NCBI GenBank assembly: GCA_964352815.1
Contig: CAYGTO010000003.1
Span: 133,015 to 197,014 of the forward strand
Length of the DNA stretch: 64,000 bases
Source: an uncultured Azospirillaceae bacterium
GTDB taxonomy: Bacteria > Pseudomonadota > Alphaproteobacteria > Rickettsiales > UBA3002
Direction: 5' to 3'
Positions 28,141-54,277 of this stretch are shown in pieces. The position numbers were made by a program, and so were the translations under genes. Below the pieces are notes generated by a model. That model was not told where the DNA came from. It ran no database searches and worked only from the letters and a program-made list of their open reading frames with translations. The first letter of the stretch is position 1. Each line of letters opens with the position of its first letter.

Positions 28141-28223
28141 GTCATCTCGAACACTGCAAGCTTTGGCGAAGCAGTGGAGAGATCTTAGATTTCTCGTCGC
28201 GCTCCGCGCTCACTCGAAATGAC
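28141..28223. repeat. nested-palindrome element (GTCAT...ATGAC family), intergenic upstream of mraZ
   Basis: GTCATCTCGAA...GAGAGATCTtagATTTCTC...CTCGAAATGAC. It has the same architecture as the copies at 41308 and 54193. Confidence 0.8.
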
Positions 28224-28315
28224 GATCTATGTTTCGTGAGATTCTGCTTTGCGCGGCACCCCGCCATTTCCTTCAAAGCCATCCTCTTCTATCCGCGACA
28301 CCATTCTGGTCGTTA

Positions 28316-28395
28316 TTGGTATTATTTGGATATATTTGGGATATTATGGTTTTTATTTGGGAAAGTCAAGTTCGAAATTGGGGAAAACAGTGGAT
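28316..28395. promoter_or_regulatory. phased (A/T)TTGG(G/A) repeats, candidate MraZ operator / curved DNA upstream of mraZ
   Basis: TGG cores start at 28318, 28327, 28337, 28347 and 28358 (9-11 bp spacing), then at 28379 and 28391, in an AT-rich tract 225-300 bp upstream of mraZ. Confidence 0.4.
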
Positions 28396-28469
28396 TATCA
28401 ACACACTAGCTGTGGATAAGGCTGGGGATGAGGATGTGGAGATTAGGATCTAGGTATCTGAAGTATAAA

Positions 28470-28540
28470 GGTTTTAGTTTTCAGGTTGTAGGTTACAGCA
28501 TGGCTATTTCTGAAACCTGCAACCTAACACCTACAACCTA
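28470..28540. repeat. inverted heptamer arrays (GGTTTCA/TGAAACC family) forming a hairpin at the rnpB 3' end
   Basis: The left arm is ggtttta gttttca ggttgta ggttaca. A 13-nt loop follows. The right arm is tgaaacc tgcaacc taacacc tacaacc. On the minus strand the hairpin is followed by TTTAT. Confidence 0.75.
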
Positions 28541-28544
28541 TCCA

Positions 28545-29042
28545 ACGAAGAGGGCCGATAAGCCGGGTTCTGTCACTGGCATTGCCAGGGATGGCCATTC
28601 ATCTAGGCCGCTTGTTGCCAAACGGCTCATGCACCCTACCCGAGATGCTGGTGCGAAACTCACTTGCGGCGATTACCTTTGCACTACCAAAAGCGTTCGG
28701 ACACGGCCGCGCGCATCTCCTATTTGGGCTTGCTCCAGACAAGGTTTACCATGCCGCCTGTGTTACCAAAGGCGCGGTGGGCTCTTACCCCACCCTTTCA
28801 CCGTTGCTTTGCATATGCTCCCCGCTTCGGTCGTCTGACCTACGCGATGGAGCGCCGCTCAGGGCTGGCCTTGCTGCTGCAAGGAATATTGCCCCGAAAC
28901 TACATACAAAGCAGTCTACTTTCTGTGGCACTGTCTCTCGGATCACTCCGGGCGGGGGTTACCCGCTGCCTTGTTTCGTGGAGCCCGGACTTTCCTCCCC
29001 CTATCGCGAGCGATAGAGAGCGACCATCTGGCCCTCTTCGGA
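28545..29042 (-). ncRNA. rnpB: RNase P RNA (bacterial type A)
   Basis: The reverse complement contains GGAGGAAAGTCCGGGCTCCA, GGTGAAAGGGTGGGGTAAGAGCCCACCGC, GGTAAAC, GAGCAAGCCCAAATAGG, CCTAGATGAATGG and ACAGAACCCGGCTTATCGGCC. The P1 helix is formed by GAAGAGGGCC/GGCCCTCTTC at the two ends. Confidence 0.93.
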
Positions 29043-29071
29043 GGCTCCTTATACACAAAATGAATGAAATA

Positions 29072-29287
29072 TCAATGCTTAACGAACCAGGCTTTGAGCG
29101 CATCGATTTCGCCCTGGGTCGGTGTGCGGCTCATATAGTCCGCCCCGCGCAAAGGAATGTCACCCTTGGCCGTGTGCAGGCAATTCTCTCCGTGGCGCAC
29201 CGCCTCGTCGACCTCAACCTTATCATTGGCCGACATATAGACAGGATAGCGCGCCATCATTTGCGATGGTTTCGCCCCCATAGTCAC
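29072..29287 (-). CDS. hypothetical small protein
   Basis: 71-aa ORF with no competing frame; no motif recognised. Confidence 0.45.
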   Translation of the reverse strand: MTMGAKPSQMMARYPVYMSANDKVEVDEAVRHGENCLHTAKGDIPLRGADYMSRTPTQGEIDALKAWFVKH

Positions 29288-29367
29288 CTCATCTATTGGA
29301 AATCAGCCATTAGGATAGATCAGAAATCTTAGGATTGGGTAAAGTTTCGGTGGGAATTAAGGGGTAT

Positions 29368-29586
29368 TTATCTCGAAGCTCCATGATATGCCTCATCAAC
29401 CCTGCGATATAACGTGCTATCTGTAACACGTTCCAAATGCCCGCCTTTTTCTACGGCATAATAGCCACCGGCATAGCGTATGTGAGTCACAGAGTCTTTT
29501 TCTTCTGGATGCATGCGCTGATATTGCCCACTAGAGACCACTCGAATGGTTTGCGGATCAATGACAGTTTTTGGTTTGTCTAACAT
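29368..29586 (-). CDS. hypothetical small protein
   Basis: 72-aa ORF with GAAGAGGA upstream of the ATG; no motif recognised. Confidence 0.45.
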   Translation of the reverse strand: MLDKPKTVIDPQTIRVVSSGQYQRMHPEEKDSVTHIRYAGGYYAVEKGGHLERVTDSTLYRRVDEAYHGASR

Positions 29587-29637
29587 AAGTCCTCTTCGCT
29601 AACGAAGGGAGATTAGAAAAAAGAACCGATATGTGTG

Positions 29638-30366
29638 TTACAATTGTGTTAAAAGTGCTGCCAGCCGCTTCTGGCATGCTTCGTCCCATTGCCCATCGAC
29701 TGTCTCAGGCCGGAAATGGCGCTGGAAGGCGCTGATGACGGATGATATCTCATCATCACTTGGGGATTCGGAGAGGCCGTATCCGTATTGTGACAAGGTA
29801 ATAGGTAATTGGGAATGGGCAATGGATTGCGTGCTATTACCTATTTCCAATTCCCCATTGCCGATCTTAGGCCACAGCCCAATGCCTTCTTTCGCGAACC
29901 TTTCCCAAGGAAATAGCTCCCCCGGATCTTGCTTTCGGCTCGGCGCGACATCGCTATGGCCAACCACATTGCGCGCAGGAATATCATGGCGTGACAGAAT
30001 CCCATGGCTAAGCGCAATCAACGCTTCCATCTGTACTTCGGGAAATGTCCGGTAACCCCATTCATGGCCGGGATTGACAATCTCAATGCCGATTGAGCGC
30101 GCATTAATGTTGCTATGGCCGCGCCAGCTCGCTACCCCCGCATGCCAGGCGCGTTTTTCCTCATCGACCAGCTGAAGCACCCGCCCATTCTCTTCCACCA
30201 TATAATGCGCCGAGACCTTTGCCTCCGCGTCACACATACGCTCGAGCGCCTCATTTCCTGTTTTCATGCCGGTGTAATGCATGATCAGCATATCCACAGG
30301 TTGCAGAGACCCATCCGGGTTCACGCGCTCGTCGAAATTGGGGCTCTTTCTTCTCACAATTGTCAT
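29638..30366 (-). CDS. N-acetylmuramoyl-L-alanine amidase (AmpD/AmiD-like) with C-terminal PG-binding domain
   Basis: Amidase_2 pattern (MHYTG, AHYMV, WHAG, GHSDVAPSRKQDPG) and a C-terminal PG_binding_1-like segment. Start placed at MTIVRRK (30366); the ORF is open to 30438. Confidence 0.88.
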   Translation of the reverse strand: MTIVRRKSPNFDERVNPDGSLQPVDMLIMHYTGMKTGNEALERMCDAEAKVSAHYMVEENGRVLQLVDEEKRAWHAGVASWRGHSNINARSIGIEIVNPGHEWGYRTFPEVQMEALIALSHGILSRHDIPARNVVGHSDVAPSRKQDPGELFPWERFAKEGIGLWPKIGNGELEIGNSTQSIAHSQLPITLSQYGYGLSESPSDDEISSVISAFQRHFRPETVDGQWDEACQKRLAALLTQL

Positions 30367-30424
30367 ACTTCTCTTGTAACGGGTTTGATACAAAGATTCA
30401 AAATGAATTAGCGGATGGAACGTT

Positions 30425-31033
30425 ATGAAACATACCACTGAAGCTTCTCCTCATGAACACGCAACATCAAGTTCTGGCATCCCAGTGCACTGGCGTTCTC
30501 ATAGCGTCGAGCCGATTGAATATGATCAGCTAGACGGCCTACTCCGCGACCATGGACTCTACGCGGACAGCGTACAGTTTTTTGAAAGAGCTAAATTTAC
30601 ACCAATCAAATTATATCAAACAACGTATGGTGGTGATGTGTATACAAATTACGGTATCATGGTCCGGTTCGAATCACTTTCATTCTCTCCAGAGATGTTG
30701 GAAGAACCTCTCAAAACTGAAGCTATGGATAATTACTACGAACTATTGGCCGGCCAAATAATTAAAGCGATCTCCCCTGGTGCTGAAGGCGCAGGCTCTG
30801 TTTGCAATGAATATGGGGACCCGCTCTACTCTGCATTCCCGCAAATCGTGAAAGACGAAATTGGGAATATATGCGTTACCCTTATGTTCGCCAGGCCTAA
30901 AGGGGTGTCAATGGACGAGCTCGATAAGGCCGAAGCTTCCATACTATTTCGTGATCAAATCGATACATATATTAGTAACATTCCTTGCAATTTGAACATT
31001 GCTCCTGTGCAAGCGAGCGTTAGCCGCCATTAA
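30425..31033 (+). CDS. hypothetical protein (orphan)
   Basis: 202-aa ORF divergent from the amidase gene; AT-richer by eye; no motif recognised. Confidence 0.5.
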   Translation: MKHTTEASPHEHATSSSGIPVHWRSHSVEPIEYDQLDGLLRDHGLYADSVQFFERAKFTPIKLYQTTYGGDVYTNYGIMVRFESLSFSPEMLEEPLKTEAMDNYYELLAGQIIKAISPGAEGAGSVCNEYGDPLYSAFPQIVKDEIGNICVTLMFARPKGVSMDELDKAEASILFRDQIDTYISNIPCNLNIAPVQASVSRH

Positions 31034-31902
31034 AGCTTATTGAACCGCACGAGTTTCGGTCGTCTGAAGACGATCACTGCGACGCCAACCATGGTGACGC
31101 AGGCGCCGAGGATCATGTCGGGTTTAAGCTCTTCGCCAAGCAGCGCAACGCTCAACCCAATCCCGATAAACGGAATCAGTAAGGAGAAAGGCGTGACTTG
31201 CGACACCGGGTATAGCCGCAGCAAATGATACCACAGCCCATACGCAACAATGGTAGAAATAATGGCTGAATAGATAATTCCCGCGCCGGCATTGAACGGC
31301 GTGTTTATGATCAACTCGATATGGTTTGACTCTAAAATCAATGACGCGGCAGCCAATTGTGGCAGCGCGGTCAGCGAGCTCCAGGCGATGATCGGGATGA
31401 TGCGTGTTTCTTCAAGGGTTTTGGCGTAAATATTCGATGACGCCCAACAAAACGCACCGGCGACCGCCAGGAGGAACGGCACCCATTGTTCGCTGACGTT
31501 CGGCGTGCCCGCAAGCAACATCAGCCCCATAAAGGCGATGCACAGCCCCATCGTGCGCCACATGCCGATTTGGTCTTTGAGGAAAATGGTGCCGAGCACT
31601 ACGGAAAAGGGGACGCCCATCTGAATTGCGACAACGGCGGTGGAGACATCAAGCCCCATGCGCAGCGCGGCAAAAACAAGCGAGAAATGCAGGCTCACCA
31701 TGAGCAAGGCAAGAATCGACAGCTTCCCCCACCCCATCGGCCGCGGCCCCGCGAACGGCAAGAGTAGAATCACCACCAACACATAGCGGATGAGGATGGT
31801 GTAGATTGGCGGGAAATGCATCACCGCATATTTCGACGCAACAAAATTCCCGCCCCAGCTGATGGCGACGATGATGGCGTAGAGAATGTGAATCGGTTTC
31901 AT
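31030..31902 (-). CDS. EamA/DMT-family transporter
   Basis: About 10 TM helices in a duplicated EamA-type arrangement, 290 aa. Confidence 0.8.
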   Translation of the reverse strand: MKPIHILYAIIVAISWGGNFVASKYAVMHFPPIYTILIRYVLVVILLLPFAGPRPMGWGKLSILALLMVSLHFSLVFAALRMGLDVSTAVVAIQMGVPFSVVLGTIFLKDQIGMWRTMGLCIAFMGLMLLAGTPNVSEQWVPFLLAVAGAFCWASSNIYAKTLEETRIIPIIAWSSLTALPQLAAASLILESNHIELIINTPFNAGAGIIYSAIISTIVAYGLWYHLLRLYPVSQVTPFSLLIPFIGIGLSVALLGEELKPDMILGACVTMVGVAVIVFRRPKLVRFNKL

Positions 31903-31939
31903 GGGCTAGGGTTTAGGGGTTCGGGATTAGGGTGTAAAG
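31903..31939. repeat. heptamer array (divergent GGTTTAG/GGGTTCG variant)
   Basis: gggctag ggtttag gggttcg ggattag ggtgtaa, immediately upstream of the transporter start. Confidence 0.5.
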
Positions 31940-32149
31940 CTGTATTGCTTAAATGATGCATCGAACCAATGTCTTACCCCTTACGGAACCTTTTTTCCTG
32001 AGCGCACCCAGAAGGCAGTGAGCGATCTTTTTTTAATATGTGGCGAAAATTGTGTTATTCGAGAACCGCAGCGCAGTCTACTTTCGGGTACATGAGCAGC
32101 GGAAGTAGAGAATAAAGCAATTTGCAGCCCATAATAAAAAGATCGAGGC

Positions 32150-32180
32150 AAAAAAAAGGGCACATCTCAATGATGCGCCC
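32150..32180 (-). terminator. rho-independent terminator candidate downstream of the DjlA-like gene
   Basis: The minus strand reads GGGCGCA-tcattgaga-TGTGCCC followed by TTTTTTTT. Confidence 0.6.
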
Positions 32181-32300
32181 CAAGTCGCTCGGCAAGCAAC
32201 AGTTGATCGGCGCGCTCACAGCAGCGCCGAGATATCTCTCTCATGGAATGATGTGGCGATCCGCCAATTCACTCCTCCCACTCTTCCGCGTGATGATGGC

Positions 32301-33068: not shown

Positions 33069-33321
33069 ATACGAGCATGTTCCGTGTTTAGTGACGTTTT
33101 TTGTGCTAACACCACTATATATAGACGCGTTTCAGCGAGACCATCTATATTTTGTGATTATCCACACATGGGCGAGCGGCCTGTGCATGACATCCTTGGA
33201 CGCCCGTATAAAAGATTAACAAAAAATGAACAAGCGTTTTCGCAGCGAAATCCACTTACACGAAAAAGAATCAAGTTAAAGGAGTGTGTTATACGAAATA
33301 AGCGAATAAATGCTCGTTAAA

Positions 33322-33648: not shown

Positions 33649-33770
33649 TCTAACCTCAAATGATAGTTAATATTGTTTGTGATTTGCGGTATAATAAGGT
33701 AATGCATACAGAAATGCACTAGGAAAATCATCCTATTAGACGAATCACAAGTGAATCAAAGCGAGTTACC

Positions 33771-34733: not shown

Positions 34734-34791
34734 CTTGCTTCCTCCATGCAGATGCGCCATTTTCTCTTCCTGAAACGAGAAAGGACATCGC

Positions 34792-35061: not shown

Positions 35062-35077
35062 TGCATTATTTCACTAT

Positions 35078-35233
35078 GTCATCTTCGGGGCTTTTGTCAG
35101 TAAGACAAAAGAGCCCGGGGATCCAGGATAAACATGTCAGAAGACATGTTTATTTCCATGAATGTCTTCTGACATTCATGGAATGGATTGCCTGCGACTC
35201 GTGGTATACTGACCACTCGCGCGTGGCAATGAC
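35078..35233. repeat. long (156 bp) four-hairpin variant of the GTCAT...ATGAC element, purS-purQ spacer
   Basis: GTCATCTTCGGGG...GTGGCAATGAC, with perfect internal hairpins ataaacatgtc-agaa-gacatgtttat and ttccatgaatgtc-ttct-gacattcatggaa. Confidence 0.85.
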
Positions 35234-35256
35234 AGCATTATGCAGGAGCGACTAAC

Positions 35257-38907: not shown

Positions 38908-38917
38908 TATTTTTATT

Positions 38918-39074
38918 GTCATCCTCGGGGCTTTTGTCAGCAAGACAAAAGAACCCGGGGATCCAGAATCTAAAAGGTCAGAAGACCTTTTAGATTTCTC
39001 ATGAAGTCTACTGACTTCATGAGAATGGATTGCCTGGATGCGTTCGCTTACTGCTCACTTACCGTGGCAATGAC
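38918..39074. repeat. long (157 bp) four-hairpin variant of the GTCAT...ATGAC element, purL-bolA spacer
   Basis: The ends are near-identical to 35078-35233. The internal hairpins are aatctaaaaggtc-agaa-gaccttttagatt and tctcatgaagtc-tact-gacttcatgaga. Confidence 0.85.
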
Positions 39075-39098
39075 ACCAACTGTGAAAAGGAGACCACC

Positions 39099-41151: not shown

Positions 41152-41307
41152 CTTTCCTCGCAATGGTTAGTTCGTTGCTGCTTTCACAAGGCGGGCAATA
41201 TGTGCACCAGTTTCTTGGCTTTGCAGAGAGGAAAGCTGCTCCGAGCTGCAAAGTTCACGTTGGTATAGAAGGATTACTTCGAATGTCAAGGGGTAATTAG
41301 CAAGACC

Positions 41308-41391
41308 GTCATTCTCGACGGCGCTGCTGCGCATGTCGGGAATCTAACCGATACGATCCCCGAGACGAACAGCAGTTCGCTCGAGGATGAC
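41308..41391. repeat. nested-palindrome element (GTCAT...ATGAC family)
   Basis: GTCATTCTCGAC...GTCGGGAATCT...GATCCCCGAGAC...CTCGAGGATGAC. Its reverse complement is largely colinear with the copy at 54193-54277. Confidence 0.85.
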
Positions 41392-41409: not shown

Positions 41410-42081
41410 TTAAAGCTGTGCTTGCTGCTGTGGTGCGGCTACATTGAGGCCACCATCCAGCGCCATGCTTGCAGTCGCAAGCTGCGTGCCTGTCATATTG
41501 TGCGGCATTTGCGGCGTACCGAAGGCCGGCGCCATCGCCATTTGCTGCGTTGCGTTTTGCAAGACCGCTTCACGCATTTGATTTTCTGCAGTCAGGCGTT
41601 CATTTGCTACGGCAAGTTCCGCACGTTCTGCAGCCAATGCACGTGCTTCTTCACTATCGCCTGAGCTGCGCGTCATGGCTGATACGGCTGCTAAGCCACC
41701 TGCGACGGCGGTAACACCTGCGGCAGGATACAAGAATTTCTTACTGACCATAAAGTTAGCAGTGCCCTTACCAAGGTTATATACCTTACTTCCTACGTAA
41801 CCAAGGCCTTTGCCTGTGTAGTTTGCGGCTGCAGCACCTAGAGCATCTGCCTCTAACGCAGTTGCAGCTCTCGCACCACTAGCAGCCGTTGTAGCCGCTT
41901 TACCCACGGTCTCTAAACCTGCTTGATACGCTGGCCCAAGTCTTTGTGCTGTACCAGCTGCGACTTCACTCCCCGCACCCGATAAAAACTTTGAACCTTT
42001 TCTTAAAGGCCAAAGGGCAACTTTACCGATAGTCTCGGGAATTCTTACTGCGCCAGTTGCTAATTTGCCTAACATGCTCAT
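41410..42081 (-). CDS. hypothetical Gly/Ala-rich protein, paralogue of the upstream gene
   Basis: Start placed at MSMLGK (42081), 10 nt after the upstream stop. Ala/Gly-rich, with one hydrophobic segment, a coiled coil (ERAELAVANERLTAENQ) and a C-terminal MAPAFGTPQMP motif. Confidence 0.55.
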   Translation of the reverse strand: MSMLGKLATGAVRIPETIGKVALWPLRKGSKFLSGAGSEVAAGTAQRLGPAYQAGLETVGKAATTAASGARAATALEADALGAAAANYTGKGLGYVGSKVYNLGKGTANFMVSKKFLYPAAGVTAVAGGLAAVSAMTRSSGDSEEARALAAERAELAVANERLTAENQMREAVLQNATQQMAMAPAFGTPQMPHNMTGTQLATASMALDGGLNVAAPQQQAQL

Positions 42082-42091
42082 TTTTACTATC

Positions 42092-42691
42092 CTATCTCGT
42101 TGCTTCCTGCAGCAGGGCGGCGTCTCGCACTTGCCCTTGATACGCTGCTTCATTCATATCCACCGCTGCACTGCCTGGCACACCGCCGGCAAAGGCTGGG
42201 TGCATCGCTTGGCGTGGCTGCGCGCGTTCCATCACAGCCTGCTGCAACATGCCCGCTGCCTGTTCTTGCTGTGCGCGTACATTCATCAGCTGACGCGTGG
42301 TTTCTTGCTCTGCTTGCAACCCGCGCGCTTGCCCGCGGATCACTTCGTTTTTCTTGCCACCGAGCAGGCCTGTTACTGTTGAGGCCACCGCACCGGTTGC
42401 ACCGCCTACAGGTGTTCCAGCGACGGCTCCAACCAAGCCAGCGCCACCACTAATGATTCCTACAGTGGTTGCTAACGTGGTAAAAAAGCTCGTTGATGCA
42501 ACGATTCCCACTGCGCCGCCAACAAGCCCTAGAACAGCTCCGATACCTAATGCAAAGGGTAGCGCCGCAACTGCAAACGCGATTCCGCCGGCTATGGCGC
42601 CTGTAAAACCGCTTTCCGCGGAGCTTTCGAGCACTCTGCGTCCATATGATTTCGGGCGTGCTGTTTCAAAATTAGTTCCATCTAATGGCAT
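42092..42691 (-). CDS. hypothetical glycine-zipper membrane protein
   Basis: About 85 aa of uninterrupted Gly/Ala/Val-rich hydrophobic sequence, then a Gln-rich coiled coil and an AMHPAFAGGVP motif. Confidence 0.55.
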   Translation of the reverse strand: MPLDGTNFETARPKSYGRRVLESSAESGFTGAIAGGIAFAVAALPFALGIGAVLGLVGGAVGIVASTSFFTTLATTVGIISGGAGLVGAVAGTPVGGATGAVASTVTGLLGGKKNEVIRGQARGLQAEQETTRQLMNVRAQQEQAAGMLQQAVMERAQPRQAMHPAFAGGVPGSAAVDMNEAAYQGQVRDAALLQEATR

Positions 42692-43153: not shown

Positions 43154-43984
43154 CTACCTAAACTCAAACAGCGCTCGGAAAATCCCATGCCAGGTGTTTA
43201 CTTCCTGCGTGCTAAGGTCCGCTCTCAATAAAGAAGTGCGGATATTGCGCCACATGGCAGACTTTTTCTCGGGCACGCTCCAGAAATTCGCCTGATCAAG
43301 CATGGGTTCAAGCTGGTCAAACAGCGCCTGTAGCTCACCGTGGGTTGCATTTACACCGTCATCCTGAGAGAGCGCAGCGACCGAAGGATCTTCTATCCTG
43401 TGGCGCGATAGATCCTTCGCCGGCGGCTCAGGATGACGAAGATTAGCCTCCCGAATCCCGAATTCTTGCCTAAACCACTCATAACACACAATATTAACTG
43501 CTTGACCAAGATTCAGGGACGGATAGTCCGGATTCGCCGGAATCGGCAGAATCGCCTGCGCCAGCGTGACATGTTCATTGGTCAGGCCCGTGCGTTCTGG
43601 GCCGAAAAGAATGGCTACACTGTCATCCCGCGATTTAATCGCGGGATCTCTACTTGCATCCAGAGATCCCCTGGTCAAGCCACGGGATGACAACATTTCA
43701 CTAATATCCGCCTCCGGCTTATGCATCTCTCGGTCGCGCGCCGTGGTGGCCAGTACATAGTCACAGTCCGCTATGGCCGCTTCTAACGTGTCATAGAGCT
43801 GCGCCGCCTCAATCAGGTGCTTTGCCCCCGCCGACAGGCTCAGCGCCCGCTCATTGGGCCAGCCATCGCGCGGATTGACAATTCTAAGCTCCGACACGGC
43901 GAAATTATGCATTGCCCGCGCCGCCGCACCAATATTCTCGCCCATTTGCGGCTCAACGAGGATGATTTTCGGAGATTGTTGCAT
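43154..43984 (-). CDS. SpoU/TrmH-family RNA 2'-O-methyltransferase (TrmJ/LasT-like) with two repeat-derived insertions
   Basis: ILVEPQMGENIGAAARAM, ILFGPERTGL and SLNLGQAV motifs. The extra segments LSSRGLTRGSLDASRDPAIKSRDDS and HPEPPAKDLSRHRIEDPSVAALSQDDG coincide with the two repeat copies. Confidence 0.85.
   Translation of the reverse strand: MQQSPKIILVEPQMGENIGAAARAMHNFAVSELRIVNPRDGWPNERALSLSAGAKHLIEAAQLYDTLEAAIADCDYVLATTARDREMHKPEADISEMLSSRGLTRGSLDASRDPAIKSRDDSVAILFGPERTGLTNEHVTLAQAILPIPANPDYPSLNLGQAVNIVCYEWFRQEFGIREANLRHPEPPAKDLSRHRIEDPSVAALSQDDGVNATHGELQALFDQLEPMLDQANFWSVPEKKSAMWRNIRTSLLRADLSTQEVNTWHGIFRALFEFR
43358..43437. repeat. nested-palindrome element (GTCATCCTGAG subfamily) inside the methyltransferase CDS
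   Basis: 80 bp, identical at 75 of 80 positions to 45121-45200, in the same orientation. Confidence 0.9.
43622..43691. repeat. nested-palindrome element (GTCATCCCGCG variant) inside the methyltransferase CDS
   Basis: GTCATCCCGCG-atttaat-CGCGGGATCTCT-acttgcatcc-AGAGATCCC-ctggtcaagcca-CGGGATGAC. Confidence 0.85.
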
Positions 43985-44053
43985 TGCACCACTACAGTTC
44001 ATTGTTTTTTAATGATTTTTCATTATTGTTATATGGTCTAAAAGGAAAATGCA

Positions 44054-44836
44054 ATGCCACGTAGAAAGAACACTGTAAACGTCAAAATACTCGCTTTGGT
44101 CGACACGCTGGATTTACTGCTATCATTAAAAGAAGCAGATCTGCCTGAGGGTGAAACTGATTTATTCCCTGGTCTTGTAGGCCTTCCTGTCTACAAATCC
44201 GCTGATTATCAGTCACAAATCAAACAGTTAAATCTTGCTATGAAATCACTTGCTGACACAATGGGTAAACAACCAATATCTTTTGGCAAATCGGAACGTG
44301 ATCATGATAGGGAAGCTGGCGGCCTGTATGTACTTCATGTTTCTATTCCCGAACCACCTCATGAATATTTAGATATATTACGTACATTTCTAGAAACTCA
44401 TAAAACTAAGCATGGCATTCCAGAAGGCTTCATCGATTACCGCCATACCCCCCAGATGCCTGTGGATTTGTTGATTGCGTGTTTAGCTGAAGTTAGAGAA
44501 AACTCGGCCCCTGAAGATACATCTGCAACATTAGAAACACCAATAAACAACGGGTTACATGCCGCTGCGCTTTCTAAACTCCTCAACGCAGCCAAAGCCA
44601 GCGCTTACGGCGATACGCATGAAATACTATTTAAACCTGCATATACAGGAGTCGAAGTAACCTCATCAGGCATAGGACTGCACGAAGCGATTGATAAGCT
44701 GACATCAAACTTAAAACAGCCAGAGAGAAAGAAGGCGTTTGCTAATCACATCCAACAACCCGATTTCGCGCGGGCAGCTCAAAGCGTTTACGCTGCTTAC
44801 GTAGCGCCAATTGCGCGTTCACATGGGTATGTTTAG
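44054..44836 (+). CDS. hypothetical protein (orphan)
   Basis: 260-aa ORF, AT-richer than neighbours by eye; no motif recognised. Confidence 0.5.
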   Translation: MPRRKNTVNVKILALVDTLDLLLSLKEADLPEGETDLFPGLVGLPVYKSADYQSQIKQLNLAMKSLADTMGKQPISFGKSERDHDREAGGLYVLHVSIPEPPHEYLDILRTFLETHKTKHGIPEGFIDYRHTPQMPVDLLIACLAEVRENSAPEDTSATLETPINNGLHAAALSKLLNAAKASAYGDTHEILFKPAYTGVEVTSSGIGLHEAIDKLTSNLKQPERKKAFANHIQQPDFARAAQSVYAAYVAPIARSHGYV

Positions 44837-46512
44837 CCAAGCAACCCGTAGGTAAGCGCGTCTTTGAGCGCCTCATAGGACGCATCGATAATGTTGTGCG
44901 ACACACCGATCGTGGTCCAGCTTTGACCCTTCTCATTCGTGCTTTCGATCATCACACGGGTCAGCGCGGCCGTTGCATCTTTCGGCGTTAGAATTCGCAC
45001 TTTGTAGTCACTCAGATGCATTTTCTTGAGCTTTGGATAGGTCGGCATTAGCGCGGCACGCAGCGCGGCATCGAGTGCATTGACCGGGCCATTACCCTCG
45101 CCTGCTGTCAGGCAGGTACCGTCATCCTGAGAGAGCGCAGCGAGCGAAGGATCTTCCATCCTGTGACACGATAGATCCTTCGCCTGCGGCTCAGGATGAC
45201 GGTTTGTTTTTTTGGATTTTGTAGCAACCGTCAGCTTCACCGTCGCCTCCGACACCGTCACCTTTCTGCCCTTCGCATTAAATCGCCGCTCATCAGTAAC
45301 ACGGAAATGCTCCAGCTCAAAAAATTCGGGCACCAGCCCCAGCTTCCGGCGCACGAGCAGCTCAAAACTCGCATCGGCATCTTCATAGGCATAGCCAAGT
45401 TTCTCGCGCTCCTTGATCAGCTTGACCAAATCATCCAGCTTCGGGTTCTCTTTCTCTTTGCCAAGCCCCATCGCTTCGAGGCGGGTGATGATGTTTGACT
45501 TACCCGCCTTATCGGACACCAGAATCTGGCGCTGATTGCCGACTTGCGCCGGATCAATATGCTCATAGCTCTTCGTGCTTTTCGCCATCGCCGAGACATG
45601 CAAGCCGCCCTTATGCGCAAAGGCCGCGCTACCAACATAGGGCAAATGGCTATTCGGAATCCGGTTCAGCCGCTCATCGACCAGGCGCGACAACTTTACC
45701 AGCTGCTGAAGTTTTTTCTCAGACGCGCCGGTTTTATAGCCCAGCTTCAGCATCAGATTTGGAATGATCGAAATCAAATTCGCATTGCCGCAGCGCTCGC
45801 CAATCCCGTTGATCGTGCCTTGCACCTGGCGCACGCCCGCTTCCACCGCCGCGATTGAATTCGCCACGGCCTGTTCGGTGTCGTTATGGCAATGAATGCC
45901 CAAATGATCGCCCGGAATATGCTGCGTAATTTGCGTTACAATCTCGCTGATCTCATGCGGCAGCGTGCCGCCATTCGTATCACACAGCACCACCCAGCGC
46001 GCGCCGGCCTCATACGCGGCTTTCAGGCAATCAAGCGTGTAGTCTGAGTTCGCCTTGAACCCGTCGAAACAGTGTTCCGCATCAAACAAAACTTCGCGCT
46101 TTTTCGACACCGCATGGGCGATACTGTCGGAAATCATTTTCACATTCTCTTTTTGTGAGACGCCCAATGCGTTCTCGACCTGCCAATCCCAGCTTTTGCC
46201 GACGATGCATAACGCGCCCGGATGCGCATCGAGCAGCGCGTTCAGCCCCGGATCATTCGCCGCGCTACGGCCATTGCGCCGCGTCATGCCAAAGGCAGTG
46301 ACCTTCGCTTTTTTAAGCTTCGGCTGTTCCGCAAAAAATTGATCATCTGTCGGGTTCGCGCCCGGCCATCCGCCTTCAATATAATCAATGCCGAACTCAT
46401 CGAGCGCCTTCGCAATCGCGATTTTATCAGACACGGTGAAATCAACCCCACGCGCCTGCGCGCCATCGCGCAGGGTGGAATCATAGAGAGTAATGCGGTC
46501 TTGTTTAGTCAT
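44833..46512 (-). CDS. cimA: citramalate synthase-type LeuA-family enzyme with a repeat-derived insertion
   Basis: LYDSTLRDGAQ entry, HCHND metal motif and a C-terminal LeuA-dimer domain. Start placed at MTKQDR (46512). The extra segment RHPEPQAKDLSCHRMEDPSLAALSQDDG coincides with the repeat. Confidence 0.8.
   Translation of the reverse strand: MTKQDRITLYDSTLRDGAQARGVDFTVSDKIAIAKALDEFGIDYIEGGWPGANPTDDQFFAEQPKLKKAKVTAFGMTRRNGRSAANDPGLNALLDAHPGALCIVGKSWDWQVENALGVSQKENVKMISDSIAHAVSKKREVLFDAEHCFDGFKANSDYTLDCLKAAYEAGARWVVLCDTNGGTLPHEISEIVTQITQHIPGDHLGIHCHNDTEQAVANSIAAVEAGVRQVQGTINGIGERCGNANLISIIPNLMLKLGYKTGASEKKLQQLVKLSRLVDERLNRIPNSHLPYVGSAAFAHKGGLHVSAMAKSTKSYEHIDPAQVGNQRQILVSDKAGKSNIITRLEAMGLGKEKENPKLDDLVKLIKEREKLGYAYEDADASFELLVRRKLGLVPEFFELEHFRVTDERRFNAKGRKVTVSEATVKLTVATKSKKTNRHPEPQAKDLSCHRMEDPSLAALSQDDGTCLTAGEGNGPVNALDAALRAALMPTYPKLKKMHLSDYKVRILTPKDATAALTRVMIESTNEKGQSWTTIGVSHNIIDASYEALKDALTYGLLG
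45121..45200. repeat. nested-palindrome element (GTCATCCTGAG subfamily) inside cimA
   Basis: 80 bp, identical at 75 of 80 positions to 43358-43437. Confidence 0.9.
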
Positions 46513-46621
46513 GACGAGCATTAGGCGAGATTTTTGCAAAAAAATCAAGAATCGTCACAATTCTGAAACAATCCTATGTTATTAAGCCCAAATATTAAGA
46601 ATATAAGGAAGGACAAATAAG

Positions 46622-47065: not shown

Positions 47066-47105
47066 AGCTCTCAGTTTTCTAATTATCCTTAAGGTTATAA
47101 GAAAA

Positions 47106-48452: not shown

Positions 48453-48495
48453 GAGAGGTTTGTAATGGTTGAGGGGTGAAATGTAAATGGAAACT

Positions 48496-48581
48496 GTCAT
48501 TGCGAGGAGCGATAGCGACGAAGCAATCTTTTGAAAGTGACTACTGAGATTGCCGCGCTCACTTCGTTCGCTCGCAATGAC
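48496..48581. repeat. nested-palindrome element (GTCATTGCGAG variant), gltX-nadE spacer
   Basis: GTCATTGCGAG...GAAGCAATCT-tttgaaagtgactact-GAGATTGC...CTCGCAATGAC. Confidence 0.85.
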
Positions 48582-48587
48582 GTGATA

Positions 48588-50255: not shown

Positions 50256-50380
50256 AAATTCGTCATACACGTTTGATACATTCTAATGTAGTGAAAGCGT
50301 AGATTTATACAATGAAGAAGAAGATAATGGCCGATGAGTCGTACATAGATATCACTCTTACATTGTTTAATCGCAGCATT

Positions 50381-52297
50381 CTACCCCGCCTGCTTCGTCT
50401 CCAGCGTGAGCCAGCGGGCTTCTAGCATGTCTAGCCGCTCTCTTAGTTTAGCATACTCACGAGTGGCACGGTCGAAGGCTTCGGGCTCTTTGGTATAGAA
50501 GTCGGGCGCAGCGAGGCGTTGATTGAGTGCCGCTAGTTCCTGTTCCAATGCTTCAATTTTTTCTATCAGGGTTTTAAGCTCATGCTGCTCGGAAAAGGTG
50601 AGTTCGGGTTTCGCCTTGGGTGCGGGCTGTTTGGGTGACGCTGTACCGCTTGCATCTTCGGGCTTTTTGCCTTTGGCGGAAGCGACACTGCTTTTGGAGG
50701 AACGTTTTTTACTGCTCCCGGTTTTTGAAGATTCGCGCTGTTTCTCTTTCGGTGTTGTCTCGCTATTTTTTAGCTTCCCCGATTCTTTCAAATAATCGCT
50801 ATAACCGCCAATATAGCTATCGACCTGCGCGTCGCCTTCAAAGGCCAAGGTCTTGGTCACCGTTTGATCCAGAAAGTCGCGATCATGGCTGACCACAAAC
50901 AGCGTACCATCATAATTCGCCAAAATCTCCTCAAGCATATCGAGCGTTTCCATGTCGAGATCATTGGTCGGCTCATCGAGAATCAGCAGATTCCCTGGAT
51001 TTGCCAGCACTTTTGCGAGCAACAACCGATTCTTCTGCCCACCCGACAGCGTCGCCACTTTCACATCCTTATCGCGCGGATCGAACATGAAATCTTTCAT
51101 ATAGCCGCACACATGGCGCTGCTTCTTACCCACCGTGATATATTCGCTATCGCCATTGCAAAGGTTGCGGCGGATCGAATGGTCCGGGTTCAGCGTGCTG
51201 CGCTTTTGGTCAAAGTAGGAAATATCCAGCGTGTAGGCGCGTTTGACCTTGCCCGCATCCGGCGCCAAATCACCCACGAGCAGCTTCAGAAAACTCGTTT
51301 TCCCCGAGCCATTTTTGCCCAAAATGCCAATCCGCTCTCCCTTCATCACGCGCAGATTAAACTGATCGAGAATGGGCTTTGCGTTCTCCCTTTCGCCAAA
51401 AGATTTTCGCACCTTGAAAAACTCTGCCACCACATTGCTGCTCTGGCTTGATTCCAGCGGCGCCAGCTCAAGCTTGCTATTGATTTTGCGGAATTGATAT
51501 TTATCCGCGCGGAGTTTTTCCTTCGCCTCATGCACCAGCTGAAGCCGGCGCACATTGCGTTTGCGCCGCGCTTTGACGCCGCGGCTTGCCCATTCAATCT
51601 CTTGCGCCAGCGCCGATTCGCGGTTTTTCAGCTCGCGCGCCTCATGTTCCAGTAGCTCAGCAGACCATTGCTCAAAATGGCCGAACCCTTTCGGGCAGAC
51701 GCGAATATTCCCGCGATCCAGCCAAAACACTTTGTTCGAAATATTCGCGAGGAAGGTTTTATCATGGCTGATGCACAGCACCGTCCCACGATATTGCTTC
51801 AGATACTGCTCGAGCCACTCAATCCCTTCCAAATCCAAATGGTTGGTCGGCTCATCGAGCATCAACACATCCGGCTCATCCACCAGCGAGCGTGCGAGCG
51901 CCACGCGCCGTAACTGCCCACCTGAAAGCCGGCCCATCGTATCTTCCAGCCGCAAGCCCAGCGGCTCGGTCACCATCTCCACGCGGTAGTGATATTCCTC
52001 GCCCTTATATTCCTCGGAAAGCCCTTCATGAACATAGTCAAACACTGTGATCTCAGGCTCAAACGGCGGATCCTGATGCAAATAGCCAATCTCCGTGCCT
52101 GGCAGCGACCAGCGCTCACCGCCATCCAGCTCGCGCTCGCCGGAAATCATATGCATCAGCGTGGTTTTCCCTGCGCCATTCTTCCCGACCAAACAAATCT
52201 TATCACCCTCGTGAATATTGAAGCTCAGCCCATCAAACAGCGGCACCTTACCAAAGGTGACATAGGCATCGGTGATGCTGAGAATCAGATTGCTCAT
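50381..52297 (-). CDS. uup: ABC-F family ATPase (Uup-like)
   Basis: Two ABC cassettes (GKNGAGKTT, GKNGSGKTS, LSGG signatures), no TM domain, a basic linker and a C-terminal coiled coil. Confidence 0.8.
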   Translation of the reverse strand: MSNLILSITDAYVTFGKVPLFDGLSFNIHEGDKICLVGKNGAGKTTLMHMISGERELDGGERWSLPGTEIGYLHQDPPFEPEITVFDYVHEGLSEEYKGEEYHYRVEMVTEPLGLRLEDTMGRLSGGQLRRVALARSLVDEPDVLMLDEPTNHLDLEGIEWLEQYLKQYRGTVLCISHDKTFLANISNKVFWLDRGNIRVCPKGFGHFEQWSAELLEHEARELKNRESALAQEIEWASRGVKARRKRNVRRLQLVHEAKEKLRADKYQFRKINSKLELAPLESSQSSNVVAEFFKVRKSFGERENAKPILDQFNLRVMKGERIGILGKNGSGKTSFLKLLVGDLAPDAGKVKRAYTLDISYFDQKRSTLNPDHSIRRNLCNGDSEYITVGKKQRHVCGYMKDFMFDPRDKDVKVATLSGGQKNRLLLAKVLANPGNLLILDEPTNDLDMETLDMLEEILANYDGTLFVVSHDRDFLDQTVTKTLAFEGDAQVDSYIGGYSDYLKESGKLKNSETTPKEKQRESSKTGSSKKRSSKSSVASAKGKKPEDASGTASPKQPAPKAKPELTFSEQHELKTLIEKIEALEQELAALNQRLAAPDFYTKEPEAFDRATREYAKLRERLDMLEARWLTLETKQAG

Positions 52298-52392
52298 AGG
52301 ACAAAGGGTTTCGTTACCAGCGCGATGCTATAGCGCAGCAGATGGGGAAAGGCAATGGGTCAATGCGGCAGCGATCGCGCCGAGATAGGATA

Positions 52393-53325
52393 CTAAAGCT
52401 TTTCCATCAATTCCGGAACGATGTCGAACAGATCGCCCACCAGCCCATAATCGGCGATTTCGAAGATAGGCGCATTTTCGTCTTTATTGATTGCAACGAT
52501 CACTTTGGATTCCTTCATCCCCGCCAAATGCTGAATCGCGCCAGAAATACCAATCGCGATGTACAGCTCAGGCGCCACGATTTTTCCTGTCTGGCCGACC
52601 TGGTAATCGTTAGGCACATAGCCCGCATCGACGGCCGCGCGTGACGCACCAATCGCTGCGCCCAGCTTATCGGCCAGCGGCTCGAGTAGCCCATTAAATT
52701 TCTCGCCATCGCCAAAGCCGCGCCCACCAGAAATGACGATATTCGCAGCGGCAAGATCGGGGCGATCGCCCTCAGATTCGCTATGCGAGACATAGGTGGA
52801 AAGCCCTGAACTGGACGGGCATTCAATCACTTCAGCGCTCGCCGAACCGCTTTCACCTGCTTTATCAAAGCTTGAAGGTCGCACCGTAACCACCTTAATT
52901 TCGTCAGAACTTTGCACCGTTTCGATCGCATTACCCGCATAGATCGGGCGACGGAACGTGTCAGCCGATTCGACCGCAATAATGTCTGATATTTGCTGAA
53001 CGTTCAATTTCGCTGCGATGCGCGGCATGATATCTTTGCCAGTCGTCGTTGCTGGTGCAAGGATATGCGAATAGCTGCTTGCAAGCGGCGCCACCAGCGC
53101 TTCCATATTCTCCGCAAGCGGCCAGCTGTAATGCCCGGCATCGGCATGGAGCACCTTCGCCACCCCGTCAATTTTTGTCGCCTGCGCGGCGGCATCGCCT
53201 GCATTATGGCCTGCTACAAGCAGATGAATGTCACCTGCACTCATTGCCTGCGCCGCGGCGACCGTCGCATGCGTCGCCGGATTCACGGTTTTGTGATCAT
53301 GTTCTGCAATGATTAATACTGCCAT
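52393..53325 (-). CDS. etfA: electron transfer flavoprotein subunit alpha
   Basis: 310 aa with the C-terminal FAD-binding motif [19 protein letters not shown]. Confidence 0.93.
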
Positions 53326-53336
53326 ATTCTACTCCT

Positions 53337-53412
53337 ACGTTTCGCGAAGGAGCGAAGCGACTGACGCGATCCAGGGCGTGACTCTGGATTGCTTCGCTAC
53401 GCTCGCAAAGCG
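53337..53412. repeat. nested-palindrome element, degenerate TTCGCGA subfamily, etfB-etfA spacer
   Basis: acgTTTCGCGAAG-gagcgaagcgactgac-GCGATCCAG-ggcgtgact-CTGGATTGC-ttcgctacg-CTCGCAAAGCGt. Confidence 0.65.
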
Positions 53413-54168
53413 TTACAACACCTTTGCTTCGTTCTTCAACTTATCGACCAGCTCATCAACATCTGCCACCTTCACCCCGCCGCTTCGTTTCGGCGGCTCG
53501 GTCACTTTGAGCACACTCACGCGCGGCGCAAGATCAATGCCGAGCGACGATGCTTCAACCGTCTCCATCGGCTTGCTGCGCGCTTTCATAATATCGGGCA
53601 GTTTCGCATAGCGCGGCTCATTCAGTCGCAAATCCGTCGTCACCACGCATGGTAGATTGAGGCCTACTGTCATTAAGCCGCCATCGACTTCGCGGGTCAC
53701 TTCGATGGCTTGACCATCGATCTTCAACTCCGAGGCGAAGGTTCCTTGGCCCCAGCCTAGCATGGCCGCGAGCATTTGGCCGGTTTGGTTTGCATCATCA
53801 TCAATCGCCTGCTTACCCATAATGACCAGATCGGGCGATTCTTGTTTCACAATATGTTCAAGAATTTTCGATGCAGCCAGTGGCTGAATCACCTCATCTT
53901 CGCCGGTTTGAATGCGAATCGCCTTATCAACCCCGAGCGCCAGTGCGGTACGCAGCACATCTTCTACTTTCGCCGGACCAACCGACACGGCGACGACTTC
54001 GCTTGCTGCGCCCTTCTCTTTCAGGCGAATTGCTTCTTCCACCGCGATTTCATCGAACGGGTTCATCGACATTTTCACGCCGCCCAGCTCAACGCCAGTT
54101 TCATCGGATTTCACACGGATTTTGACATTGTAATCAACCACACGCTTGACGGGGACAAGGATTTTCAT
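53413..54168 (-). CDS. etfB: electron transfer flavoprotein subunit beta
   Basis: [19 protein letters not shown] entry; 251 aa. Confidence 0.93.
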
Positions 54169-54192
54169 CGGCCACCTTCCTGTTCGTTTTTC

Positions 54193-54277
54193 GTCATCTT
54201 CGAGCGAACTGCTGTTCGCCTCGGAGATCTATGTTACATCAGATTCCCGACGCTCGCTAGGCTCGGTCGAGAATGAC
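54193..54277. repeat. nested-palindrome element (GTCAT...ATGAC family) upstream of etfB
   Basis: GTCATCTTCGAG-cgaactgctgttcgc-CTCGGAGATCT...AGATTCCCGAC...GTCGAGAATGAC. Confidence 0.85.

What the first reader, a model, noticed from the sequence alone, without database searches (positions are those of the whole stretch)
28141..54277. Family of GTCAT...ATGAC nested-palindrome elements with a copy-specific 'key' repeated four times
Clear copies lie at 28141-28223, 35078-35233, 38918-39074, 41308-41391, 43358-43437, 43622-43691, 45121-45200, 48496-48581 and 54193-54277. Degenerate relatives lie at 14300-14384, 53337-53412 and 63442-63570. All share one layout: (C/T)GTCAT + key, a loop, key' + ATC(T/C), a 10-18 nt spacer, (A/G)GAT + key, a loop, then key' + ATGAC(G/A). 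The 5-9 nt key differs between copies, for example ATCCT, ATTGC, ATCCCGCG, ATCTTCGAG and TCGCG. In most copies read, the key recurs four times in alternating orientation within the copy, with the occasional mismatch. Terminal, central and half-element hairpins are therefore all possible. That is covariation across copies, which argues for selection on, or a copying mechanism dependent on, secondary structure rather than on primary sequence. No transposase is present in the window. I cannot match the element to a named family such as REP/BIME, ERIC, Correia or RIME from memory. Its closest behavioural analogue is the Rickettsia palindromic element.
Basis: seen in the sequence. Interest (0 to 1): 0.8.

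Follow-up and report, generated by a model that had tools for sequence, protein, structure and literature searches.

The report
CGTC-tagged palindromic repeats (RPE-like), some inside genes
The GTCAT...ATGAC elements are real, but they belong to an already described class of bacterial selfish palindromes (CGTC-tagged REPs, which include Rickettsia RPE-4 and RPE-6); here they have spread through an uncultured alphaproteobacterium and sit in frame inside four places in three housekeeping genes.

Summary
All 12 listed elements exist, and blastn-short finds no others. There are 14 strict units of the form GTCAT-key...key'-ATC against 1.8±1.2 in shuffles. The strict four-fold key occurs in 4 copies against 0 in shuffles.

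They are head-to-head dimers of hairpin units with an unpaired (C/T)GTC head, a stem that starts with AT, and a short tail. That is the CGTC-tagged REP superfamily of Di Nocera et al. 2013. RPE-4 and RPE-6 belong to it, and no transposase has been found for it.

The four-fold key follows from two inverted copies of one hairpin. Keys are specific to subfamilies, not to copies: six subfamilies occur here, three of them heterodimers.

Key covariation is real across the wider family. In 148 independent units retrieved with the key left free, 141 have a perfectly complementary key.

New here:
- Four copies lie in frame inside murB, trmJ (two copies) and cimA.
- Two syntenic relatives carry no units at all.
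- Many units have a GCG(N1-2)AGC "mini-hairpin DNA" core.
- The same termini occur in at least 12 phyla and in viral contigs.

How the elements move remains unknown.

Verdict: a new member of a known kind, of moderate interest.

The parts
28140..28224 (.). Subfamily F head-to-head dimer (keys CTC and TTC), 48 nt upstream of mraZ and downstream of rnpB
   Evidence: fold
35077..35234 (.). Subfamily C compound element: outer CGTC units (left key CTT, right key TGC) plus two inner AT-first hairpins. It fills the purS-purQ spacer and starts 15 nt after the purS stop codon
   Evidence: the spacer is 10 bp in the syntenic relative L123
38917..39075 (.). Subfamily C compound element, 9 nt after the purL stop codon. 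Inner hairpin 1 has a different but fully compensated stem compared with the copy at 35077
   Evidence: the purL-bolA spacer is 14 bp in L123
41307..41392 (.). Subfamily B heterodimer (keys TCT and CCT), 17 nt downstream of ORF 41410-42153(-) and upstream of rpsD
43357..43438 (.). Subfamily A homodimer (key CCT), in frame in trmJ (peptide RHPEPPAKDLSRHRIEDPSVAALSQDDG) in the interdomain linker
43621..43692 (.). Subfamily E dimer of two CGTC-4-like units (9-10 bp stems, 3-5 nt loops), 72 bp = 24 codons, in frame in the trmJ catalytic domain (SSRGLTRGSLDASRDPAIKSRDD)
   Evidence: other frames give IPWSSHGMT and IPRLNRGMT, compared with R. conorii CGTC-4 inserts WIPWSNHGMT and AIPRLDLGI
45118..45203 (.). 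Subfamily A homodimer, 94% identical to the copy at 43357. CGTCAT..ATGACGGT is 84 bp = 28 codons, in frame in cimA (RHPEPQAKDLSCHRMEDPSLAALSQDDG)
   Evidence: (eight homologs at 69-82% identity lack it)
48495..48582 (.). Subfamily D homodimer (key TGC) with a GCGATAGC core, 5 nt after the nadE stop codon and upstream of gltX. Same termini and key as dimers on Novosphingobium plasmids
54192..54278 (.). Subfamily B heterodimer, inverted relative to the copy at 41307. One C-G to T-A compensated pair separates the two copies. Lies upstream of etfB
14294..14389 (.). Decayed dimer (heads CGTCAC and AGCAT, GAGCGAAGCGA core), 96 bp, in frame in murB (SEAFRERSDAIHSSDVMREWTAAEAGASSQSDE)
   Evidence: query residues 91-130 have no counterpart in PDB 9dtk_A
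53337..53412 (.). Decayed dimer (keys TCGCG and TTGC, two GAGCGNAGCGA cores) that exactly fills the etfB-etfA spacer
63442..63570 (.). Decayed or compound relative; its left unit is 88% identical to the one at 53337 and has a GAGCGCAGCGA core
13665..14687 (-). murB, host gene of an in-frame copy
43154..44002 (-). trmJ-like SpoU methyltransferase, host gene of two in-frame copies
44833..46548 (-). cimA/leuA-family citramalate synthase (database protein P0001, 562 aa), host gene of one in-frame copy

Best explanation
The elements are head-to-head dimers, built like REPINs, of CGTC-tagged REP units. Each unit has four parts: an unpaired (C/T)GTC head; a stem whose first two pairs are A-T and T-A; a free but self-complementary 'key'; and a short tail. 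Many units also have a GCG(N1-2)AGC DNA mini-hairpin at the tip.

They are non-autonomous, selfish palindromic DNA. They multiplied in this alphaproteobacterial lineage after it split from its sequenced relatives. Whole dimers are copied to new sites. Copies survive in two kinds of place: just after stop codons in tight operons, and inside tolerant loops or linkers of proteins when the copy is a multiple of 3 bp and has an open frame.

Shown here: family membership, insertion relative to relatives, in-frame copies, and key covariation.

Inferred: the elements move as folded single-stranded DNA, handled by an enzyme encoded elsewhere. That enzyme would read the head, the AT foot and the hairpin shape but not the key. 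This would explain why many keys coexist in one genome.
For: Family features:
- Every clear copy has a C/T-GTC head and an AT-first stem.
- All nine clear copies are head-to-head dimers.
- Five of eight intergenic copies lie 0-17 nt after the upstream stop codon.
- No transposase lies in the window.
- All these features match PMC3733652.

Homology to RPE-4 (CGTC-4): unit translations IPWSSHGMT and IPRLNRGMT resemble R. conorii inserts WIPWSNHGMT and AIPRLDLGI.

Same family in a host species named in that paper: Novosphingobium aromaticivorans pNL2 and N. resinovorum carry GTCATTGCGAG...CTCGCAATGAC dimers.

Insertion:
- Syntenic relatives L123 and L121/L122 have no such units (two chance regex hits only) in 26 kb, against 20 in the window.
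- The purS-purQ and purL-bolA spacers are 10 and 14 bp in L123.
- cimA homologs lack the insert.
- Solved MurB and TrmJ structures lack the inserts.
- Two copies 94% identical sit in different genes.
- Other alphaproteobacterial TrmJ proteins carry different REP peptides in the same linker.

Structure rather than sequence:
- 141 of 148 independent units have complementary keys, with at least 9 different keys.
- One stem position shows all four Watson-Crick pairs and no non-Watson-Crick pair.
- At least six keys coexist within 26 kb here.

Single-stranded DNA: the GCGNAGC/GCGNNAGC core is the mini-hairpin DNA motif. It is far more stable as DNA than as RNA (PMC13037366).
Against: - No mobilising enzyme has been identified here or in the literature.
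- No excision or insertion event is observed directly.
- There are no target-site duplications and no shared target motif.
- Most units here depart from the published dimensions of families CGTC-1 to CGTC-4 (8-9 bp stems, 4-5 nt loops).
- Figure 2 of the paper, which gives the consensus sequences, could not be read, so assignment to a numbered family rests on peptides and host species.
- Only 64 kb of this genome was available.
- The bias toward positions just after stop codons and the compensated stems would also fit an RNA-level role.
Confidence: 0.75

Rival explanations
1. The elements are functional RNA structures, such as 3'-end stabilisers, processing sites or attenuators within operon transcripts. 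Selection on the RNA hairpin would preserve them, and copy number would reflect recruitment rather than selfish spread.
For: - Five of eight intergenic copies lie 0-17 nt after the stop codon of the upstream gene in same-direction gene pairs, as PMC3733652 reports.
- As RNA they fold with z-scores of about -2 to -8.
- Some stems in subfamilies B and C contain G-T pairs, which would be G-U in RNA.
Against: - Four copies lie inside essential coding regions and are translated.
- Subfamily B occurs in both orientations relative to transcription.
- No run of T follows the elements.
- No Rfam family matches, even at E of 1 or less.
- Close syntenic relatives run the same operons without them.
- Pan-family key pairs are almost purely Watson-Crick, with almost no G-T intermediates.
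- The core motif is much weaker as RNA than as DNA.
Confidence: 0.2
2. No dedicated enzyme exists. The palindromes are kept perfect, and their arms kept in step, by intrastrand template switching (quasi-palindrome correction) during replication. New copies would arise by rare illegitimate recombination or replication errors at very stable DNA hairpins.
For: - Compensated changes occur without G-T intermediates.
- Inner hairpin 1 of subfamily C differs at 4 of 12 stem positions, all compensated, while the neighbouring outer unit differs by only about 6%.
- In many genomes the flanks outside GTCAT and the centres between units are variable yet complementary.
- No transposase is associated with the family in any study.
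- The mini-hairpin binds SSB poorly and marks priming sites on single-stranded DNA.
Against: - It does not explain how an identical 25-nt module (GTCATCCTGAGCGNAGCGAAGGATC) comes to be in at least 12 phyla.
- It does not explain how 94%-identical 84-bp dimers reach unlinked genes.
- It does not explain why the head and tail stay constant while the key is free.
Confidence: 0.15
3. The units are mainly landing pads for other mobile DNA, such as IS110/IS1111-type elements or filamentous prophages. From my own knowledge, this is the role described for Neisseria dRS3, which equals CGTC-1. On this view they are not mobile themselves.
For: PMC3733652 equates CGTC-1 in Neisseria with dRS3 repeats. That REP-like hairpins are known insertion targets rests on my own knowledge and was not tested here.
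Against: - No IS, integrase or prophage is present in the window.
- No element is interrupted.
- The units themselves are insertions relative to the relatives.
Confidence: 0.05

Closest known systems
CGTC-tagged REPs (Di Nocera, De Gregorio, Rocco 2013, BMC Genomics 14:522)
   Same: - Unpaired CGTC or TGTC head.
- Stem beginning with complementary A-T and T-A pairs.
- Short tail.
- Head-to-head dimers predominate.
- Mainly found in alphaproteobacteria.
- Lie close to the 3' end of the upstream ORF.
- Intragenic in-frame copies exist.
- No dedicated transposase.
- Heterogeneous stems within one genome.
   Different: - Only subfamily E has the published 8-9 bp stem and 4-5 nt loop.
- Subfamilies B and C have 14-18 bp stems.
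- Subfamilies A, D, F and G have a 5-bp outer stem around a 13-30 nt interior that carries a GCG(N1-2)AGC mini-hairpin.
- Tails are mostly CTT or CTC rather than CCA.
- The termini are seen here in at least 12 phyla plus viral contigs, against 5 phyla reported.
Rickettsia palindromic elements (RPE; RPE-4 = CGTC-4, RPE-6 = CGTC-1)
   Same: - Palindromic repeats inserted in frame into housekeeping genes of an alphaproteobacterium.
- Subfamily E units translate to near-identical peptides (IPWSSHGMT against WIPWSNHGMT).
- One gene can carry two inserts.
   Different: - The host is not a reduced Rickettsia genome: GC is 52%, and the pur, cimA, nadE, panD and ETF genes are present.
- Most copies belong to other subfamilies.
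- The elements are 70-88 bp, or 156 bp for the compound ones, not the 100-150 bp of RPE-1.
REPIN-RAYT systems (Bertels and Rainey 2011)
   Same: Two inverted REP hairpins separated by a short spacer fold into one long hairpin and are copied as a unit; populations of related copies persist in a lineage.
   Different: The head is CGTC, not GTAG. No RAYT lies in the window. The Y1 transposase genes found in two loci fetched by the viral-contig pattern scan (L202, L237) are flanked by a different palindrome.
Mini-hairpin DNA d(GCGNAGC)/d(GCGNNAGC) (Hirao and colleagues; review PMC13037366)
   Same: The tip of many units is exactly this motif: GCGCAGC, GCGAAGC, GCGTAGC or GCGATAGC. All four bases occur at N across the family.
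   Different: The motif was described in phage single-strand replication origins, ssi sites and N4 promoters. In the library searched it has not been described as the core of a chromosomal repeat family.
Integron attC sites
   Same: Imperfect palindromes of 60-140 bp in which short terminal cores and the fold are conserved but the interior sequence is not; they are recognised as folded single strands.
   Different: The terminal cores differ (RYYYAAC/GTTRRRY against YGTCAT/ATGACR). There is no integrase and no cassette array, and the elements sit inside conserved housekeeping operons and genes.

Membership tests
CGTC-tagged REP superfamily | Unpaired terminal CGTC motif (TGTC and CCTC variants allowed) | tested here: met
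   All 18 heads of the nine clear copies are C/T-GTC. In the pan-family sample, 146 of 148 heads are T or C before GTC.
CGTC-tagged REP superfamily | Stem starts with complementary A-T and T-A pairs | tested here: met
   GTC-AT...AT-C in every clear unit; 79 of 79 distinct pan-family units.
CGTC-tagged REP superfamily | Head-to-head dimers predominate | tested here: met
   All nine clear copies are head-to-head dimers. 54 of 148 pan-family units have a strict head-to-head partner within 60 nt, and 42 of those share the key.
CGTC-tagged REP superfamily | 3-nt unpaired tail, consensus CCA | tested here: inconclusive
   The tail is CCA in subfamily C (and in G by inspection), but CTT, CTC or CTA in A, B, D, E and F. 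The commonest pan-family triplet after ATC is CAG, i.e. tail CCA (33 of 148), followed by TCA, TCC and TCT.
CGTC-tagged REP superfamily | No flanking dedicated transposase | tested here: met
   Pfam scan of the ORFs tested and tblastn with nine RAYT/TIRYT sequences find none in the window.
CGTC families 1-4 (numbered families of the paper) | Stem of 8-9 bp and loop of 4-5 nt | tested here: inconclusive
   Met by both units of subfamily E. Subfamilies B and C have 5-nt loops but 14-18 bp stems. A, D, F and G have a 5-bp outer stem plus a long interior. The Figure 2 consensus sequences are not held, so no numbered family is assigned except that E is CGTC-4-like.
Rickettsia palindromic elements | In-frame insertion into protein-coding genes | tested here: met
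   murB, trmJ (two copies) and cimA.
Rickettsia palindromic elements | Sequence relatedness to a named RPE | tested here: met
   Subfamily E only: IPWSSHGMT and IPRLNRGMT against R. conorii CGTC-4 (= RPE-4) inserts WIPWSNHGMT and AIPRLDLGI. The comparison is at peptide level, not a DNA alignment.
Rickettsia palindromic elements | Host in the genus Rickettsia | tested here: inconclusive
The nearest named CimA homologs are Alphaproteobacteria or Rickettsiales MAGs at 65-67% identity. GC content of 52% and the biosynthetic gene set argue against Rickettsia.
REPIN-RAYT | GTAG head and a cognate RAYT gene | tested here: not met
   The head is CGTC or TGTC, and there is no RAYT in the window. The rest of the genome could not be searched.
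Classical MITE | Target-site duplication flanking terminal inverted repeats | tested here: not met
   No consistent direct repeat of 2-9 bp at any boundary offset.
Intrinsic terminator | GC-rich hairpin followed by a run of T | tested here: not met
   No T run follows the copies (flanks), and four copies are read through as coding sequence.
Any Rfam RNA family | Covariance-model match | tested here: not met
   Only RNase P at gathering score. Nothing hits the elements at E of 1 or less.

The most novel reading that the evidence does not exclude
The CGTC superfamily would be a pan-bacterial replicator shaped by single-stranded DNA. Its core is the extraordinarily stable GCGNAGC DNA mini-hairpin, and it has no transposase of its own.

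It would spread in one of two ways. Either host replication and repair propagate it, for example through SSB-excluding hairpins on the lagging strand, priming, or template switching. Or a widely conserved enzyme, not yet recognised, reads only the (C/T)GTC-AT foot and the fold.

Phages carry copies and could ferry them between phyla.
Probability: 0.15. Interest if true: 0.8.

Novelty: new member of a known kind. Interest (0 to 1): 0.4.

Why it matters
How RPEs and CGTC REPs move has been open since 2000 and 2013. They are the classic case of selfish DNA living inside protein-coding genes, yet no enzyme is known for them.

This window does not solve that question, but it gives a clean natural experiment:
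- A lineage with dense, young copies next to syntenic relatives with none.
- Four translated insertions in essential genes.
- A linker in TrmJ that different alphaproteobacteria have had invaded independently.

It also links the family to the DNA-specific mini-hairpin motif and shows the same termini in at least 12 phyla and in viral contigs. That points future work toward single-stranded DNA and toward gene-co-occurrence screens.

For annotation, these repeats create spurious small ORFs and lengthen real proteins.

Tried and rejected
- Literature search by raw sequence strings returned only primers and chance hits.
- The look-up of encoding contigs for window proteins and for P0001 found nothing on record.
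- Plasmid and phage BLAST with a CCT-key dimer found no match. The TGC-key dimer hit only 11 plasmids.
- RAYT/Y1 transposase search found none in the window. The two hits among fetched loci are flanked by an unrelated palindrome.
- Clustering ORFs within 400 bp of units across 240 loci gave only phage structural genes and an ABC ATPase, with no candidate enzyme.
- MAFFT misplaced the single gap in the unit alignment, so pair counts were computed per length class in Python rather than with the count of structure pairs.
- No covariance model was built. The window's units differ too much in interior length, and blastn-short had already shown there are no extra copies.
- Target-site duplications and a shared target motif were looked for and not found.
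- Explanations rejected: chance or base composition (shuffles); terminators (no T run, and copies in coding sequence); attC sites (different cores, no integrase); tRNA-like genes (ARAGORN found none).
Full report
**1. Observation**

The window is 64 kb with 52% GC.

Counts against dinucleotide-preserving shuffles:
- GTCAT...ATGAC pairs with complementary 11-nt ends: 7 found, 0-2 per shuffle.
- Half-elements GTCAT-XYZ...Z'Y'X'-ATC: 14 found, 1.84±1.25 expected.
- Strict four-fold key: 4 copies, none in 100 shuffles.
- GAGCG(N1-2)AGCGA module: 7 found, 0.52 expected. All 7 lie inside listed elements, including all three degenerate ones, which ties those to the family.

blastn-short of all copies against the window finds nothing else. 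Folded as DNA or RNA, the elements form long imperfect hairpins or four-way junctions, mostly far below shuffled controls.

**2. Anatomy**

Written in head orientation, each half is one unit with four parts:
- an unpaired (C/T)GTC head;
- a stem whose first two pairs are A-T and T-A;
- a variable, self-complementary key;
- a tail that starts with C.

Each element is two such units head to head around a 3-20 nt spacer. The "key four times" is therefore two inverted copies of one hairpin.

The copies fall into subfamilies rather than being unique:

| Subfamily | Copies | Notes |
|---|---|---|
| A | 43358, 45121 | 94% identical |
| B | 41308, 54193 | same heterodimer, opposite orientation; one C-G to T-A compensated pair between copies |
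| C | 35078, 38918 | 156-bp compound forms with two extra inner hairpins |
| D | 48496 | |
| E | 43622 | |
| F | 28141 | |
| G | 14294, 53337, 63442 | decayed copies |

The key is identical in both arms in A, D and E. It differs by one transition in B and F. It is unrelated between the arms in C.

**3. What it is**

The layout matches the CGTC-tagged REP superfamily of Di Nocera et al. 2013 (PMC3733652). That family is described as having:
- a CGTC or TGTC head;
- a 3-nt tail;
- predominantly head-to-head dimers;
- a distribution mainly in alphaproteobacteria;
- positions within 20 bp of the upstream ORF's 3' end;
- intragenic copies;
- no associated transposase.

The paper equates R. conorii RPE-6 with CGTC-1 and RPE-4 with CGTC-4.

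Two direct links support membership. First, the subfamily E units translate to IPWSSHGMT and IPRLNRGMT, while the paper's supplement lists R. conorii CGTC-4 inserts WIPWSNHGMT and AIPRLDLGI. Second, Novosphingobium aromaticivorans, one of the paper's host species, carries a GTCATTGCGAGG...CTCGCAATGAC dimer on plasmid pNL2, and N. resinovorum carries a similar one. Both closely resemble subfamily D.

No Rfam family matches the elements.

**4. New findings in the window**

*(a) Four copies are translated.*
- cimA carries an A copy. Eight homologs at 69-82% identity lack the roughly 33-residue insert.
- trmJ carries an E copy in the catalytic domain and an A copy in the interdomain linker.
- murB carries a decayed copy that splits the FAD-binding domain. 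Residues 91-130 have no counterpart in PDB 9dtk_A.

The intragenic copies are multiples of three (72, 84 and 96 bp) and are read in a stop-free frame. That is consistent with selection filtering which insertions survive.

Other alphaproteobacterial TrmJ proteins carry different REP-encoded peptides in the same linker, for example VIPAKAGIQ...DSSLRWNDD and SLRATAKQS...RRFAPRNDV. That site has therefore been invaded repeatedly.

*(b) Empty sites in relatives.* A syntenic relative (L123) and a closer one (L121/L122) contain no such units (two chance regex hits only) in 26 kb, against 20 in the window. Their purS-purQ and purL-bolA spacers are 10 and 14 bp, where the window has the 156-bp elements.

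*(c) Position.* Five of eight intergenic copies begin 0-17 nt after the upstream stop codon.

*(d) No transposase.* None is present in the window. There is no target-site duplication.

**5. The wider family**

The hits came from Bacteroidota, Acidobacteriota, Chloroflexota, Gemmatimonadota, Verrucomicrobiota, Planctomycetota, Firmicutes, Synergistota, Nitrospirota, Actinobacteriota, Abditibacteriota, Bdellovibrionota and alpha-, beta- and gamma-proteobacteria.

The shared module is GTCAT-CCT-GAGCGNAGCGA-AGG-ATC. The centre between the units and the flanks outside them vary, but they are often complementary too.

Results:
- 141 of 148 units had a perfectly complementary 3-nt key, where 1 in 64 is expected by chance. 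At least nine different keys were seen.
- One stem position shows T-A, C-G, G-C and A-T pairs and no mismatch. Slid controls collapse.
- G-T pairs are nearly absent.
- Where a head-to-head partner was found, 42 of 54 shared the key.

**6. Mechanism**

The tip of the canonical unit reads 5-bp stem, tandem G·A pairs, then GC-GNA-GC. This is the GCGNAGC/GCGNNAGC "mini-hairpin DNA". According to the Hirao review it is extraordinarily stable as DNA and much weaker as RNA. It occurs at priming sites on single-stranded DNA and binds SSB poorly (PMC13037366).

Four observations fit elements handled as folded single-stranded DNA by a factor that reads the foot and the shape but not the key:
- this DNA-specific core;
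- the constant head and foot;
- the free key;
- many keys within one genome.

That step is inference. No enzyme was found. The RAYT-like genes in two fetched loci are flanked by a different palindrome. Clustering of genes next to units gave no candidate.

Rivals:
- An RNA role after stop codons fits the positions, but not the translated copies, the two orientations, or the absence from relatives.
- Template-switch correction of quasi-palindromes explains the concerted arm changes and the uneven divergence in subfamily C, but not the dispersal of an identical module across phyla.
- A role as landing pads for other mobile DNA has no support here.

**7. Verdict**

It is a new member of a known kind.

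Several side results are useful: the translated copies in murB, trmJ and cimA; the empty sites in relatives; the mini-hairpin core; and a phylogenetic range much wider than the five phyla reported. The way the elements move remains the open question.

Noticed in passing
window 28543-29039 (-): The RNase P RNA (class A, 315 bits) is 497 nt against a 367-position model. It has two expansions, of about 85 nt and about 44 nt, in hairpin regions of the model; neither contains a GTCAT unit.
   Followed up: partly
window 60827-60880, inside glyQ (60215-61210, +): GlyQ has a 15-residue insert ([15 protein letters not shown]) that is absent from PDB 7qcf_A. It is encoded by short tandem motifs (CCAGGGG twice; GAAACC three times) and contains AGTCATCCTGA, which resembles the subfamily A head. 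It could be a decayed unit or a chance match.
   Followed up: partly
proteins P0128, P0130, P0132, P0139, P0149 (alignment A4): TrmJ homologs from other alphaproteobacteria carry their own REP-encoded peptides (VIPAKAGIQ...DSSLRWNDD; VIRVESRESS; SLRATAKQS...RRFAPRNDV) in the same interdomain linker. This looks like a recurrent insertion hot spot.
   Followed up: partly
Phages may carry the elements between hosts.
   Followed up: partly
L202:1185-1598 and L237:1326-1601: Y1 (RAYT/TIRYT-like) transposase genes are flanked by a different long palindrome (GTGGCGCAGGCTTC(C/A)GCCTGTGGGG...CCACAGGCTG(G)AAGCCTGCGCCAC). CGTC units lie 1-4 kb away and are not associated with these genes.
   Followed up: partly
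window 32143-32204 (-): There is a sub-threshold match to the alphaproteobacterial sRNA family suhB/mmgR (28 bits against a gathering score of 41, E = 0.04).
   Followed up: no
window 61207-61587 (+): A gene for a '23S rRNA intervening sequence protein' (PF05635, four-helix bundle) sits between glyQ and panD, where glyS would usually follow glyQ.
   Followed up: no
window 59476-60189 (+): The AlgH-like protein (DUF179) has about 65 extra N-terminal residues before the domain. This could be a wrong start codon or another insertion.
   Followed up: no
window 35125-35183 and 38964-39025: The inner hairpins of the two compound elements share their loops (GTC-AGAA-GAC and GTC-T(T/A)CT-GAC) and an AT-first stem, but they lack a CGTC head. 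Inner hairpin 1 differs at 4 of 12 stem positions between the two copies, all compensated, while the adjacent outer unit is 94% identical. This divergence is uneven and unexplained.
   Followed up: partly
window 8717-28092: This stretch holds a cell-wall and division gene cluster: Pfam identifies murB and mraZ, and I inferred the other mur/fts genes (ftsZ, ftsA, ftsQ, ddl and so on) from ORF order and size without testing them. Only one decayed element lies in these 20 kb, against eleven in the remaining 36 kb.
   Followed up: no
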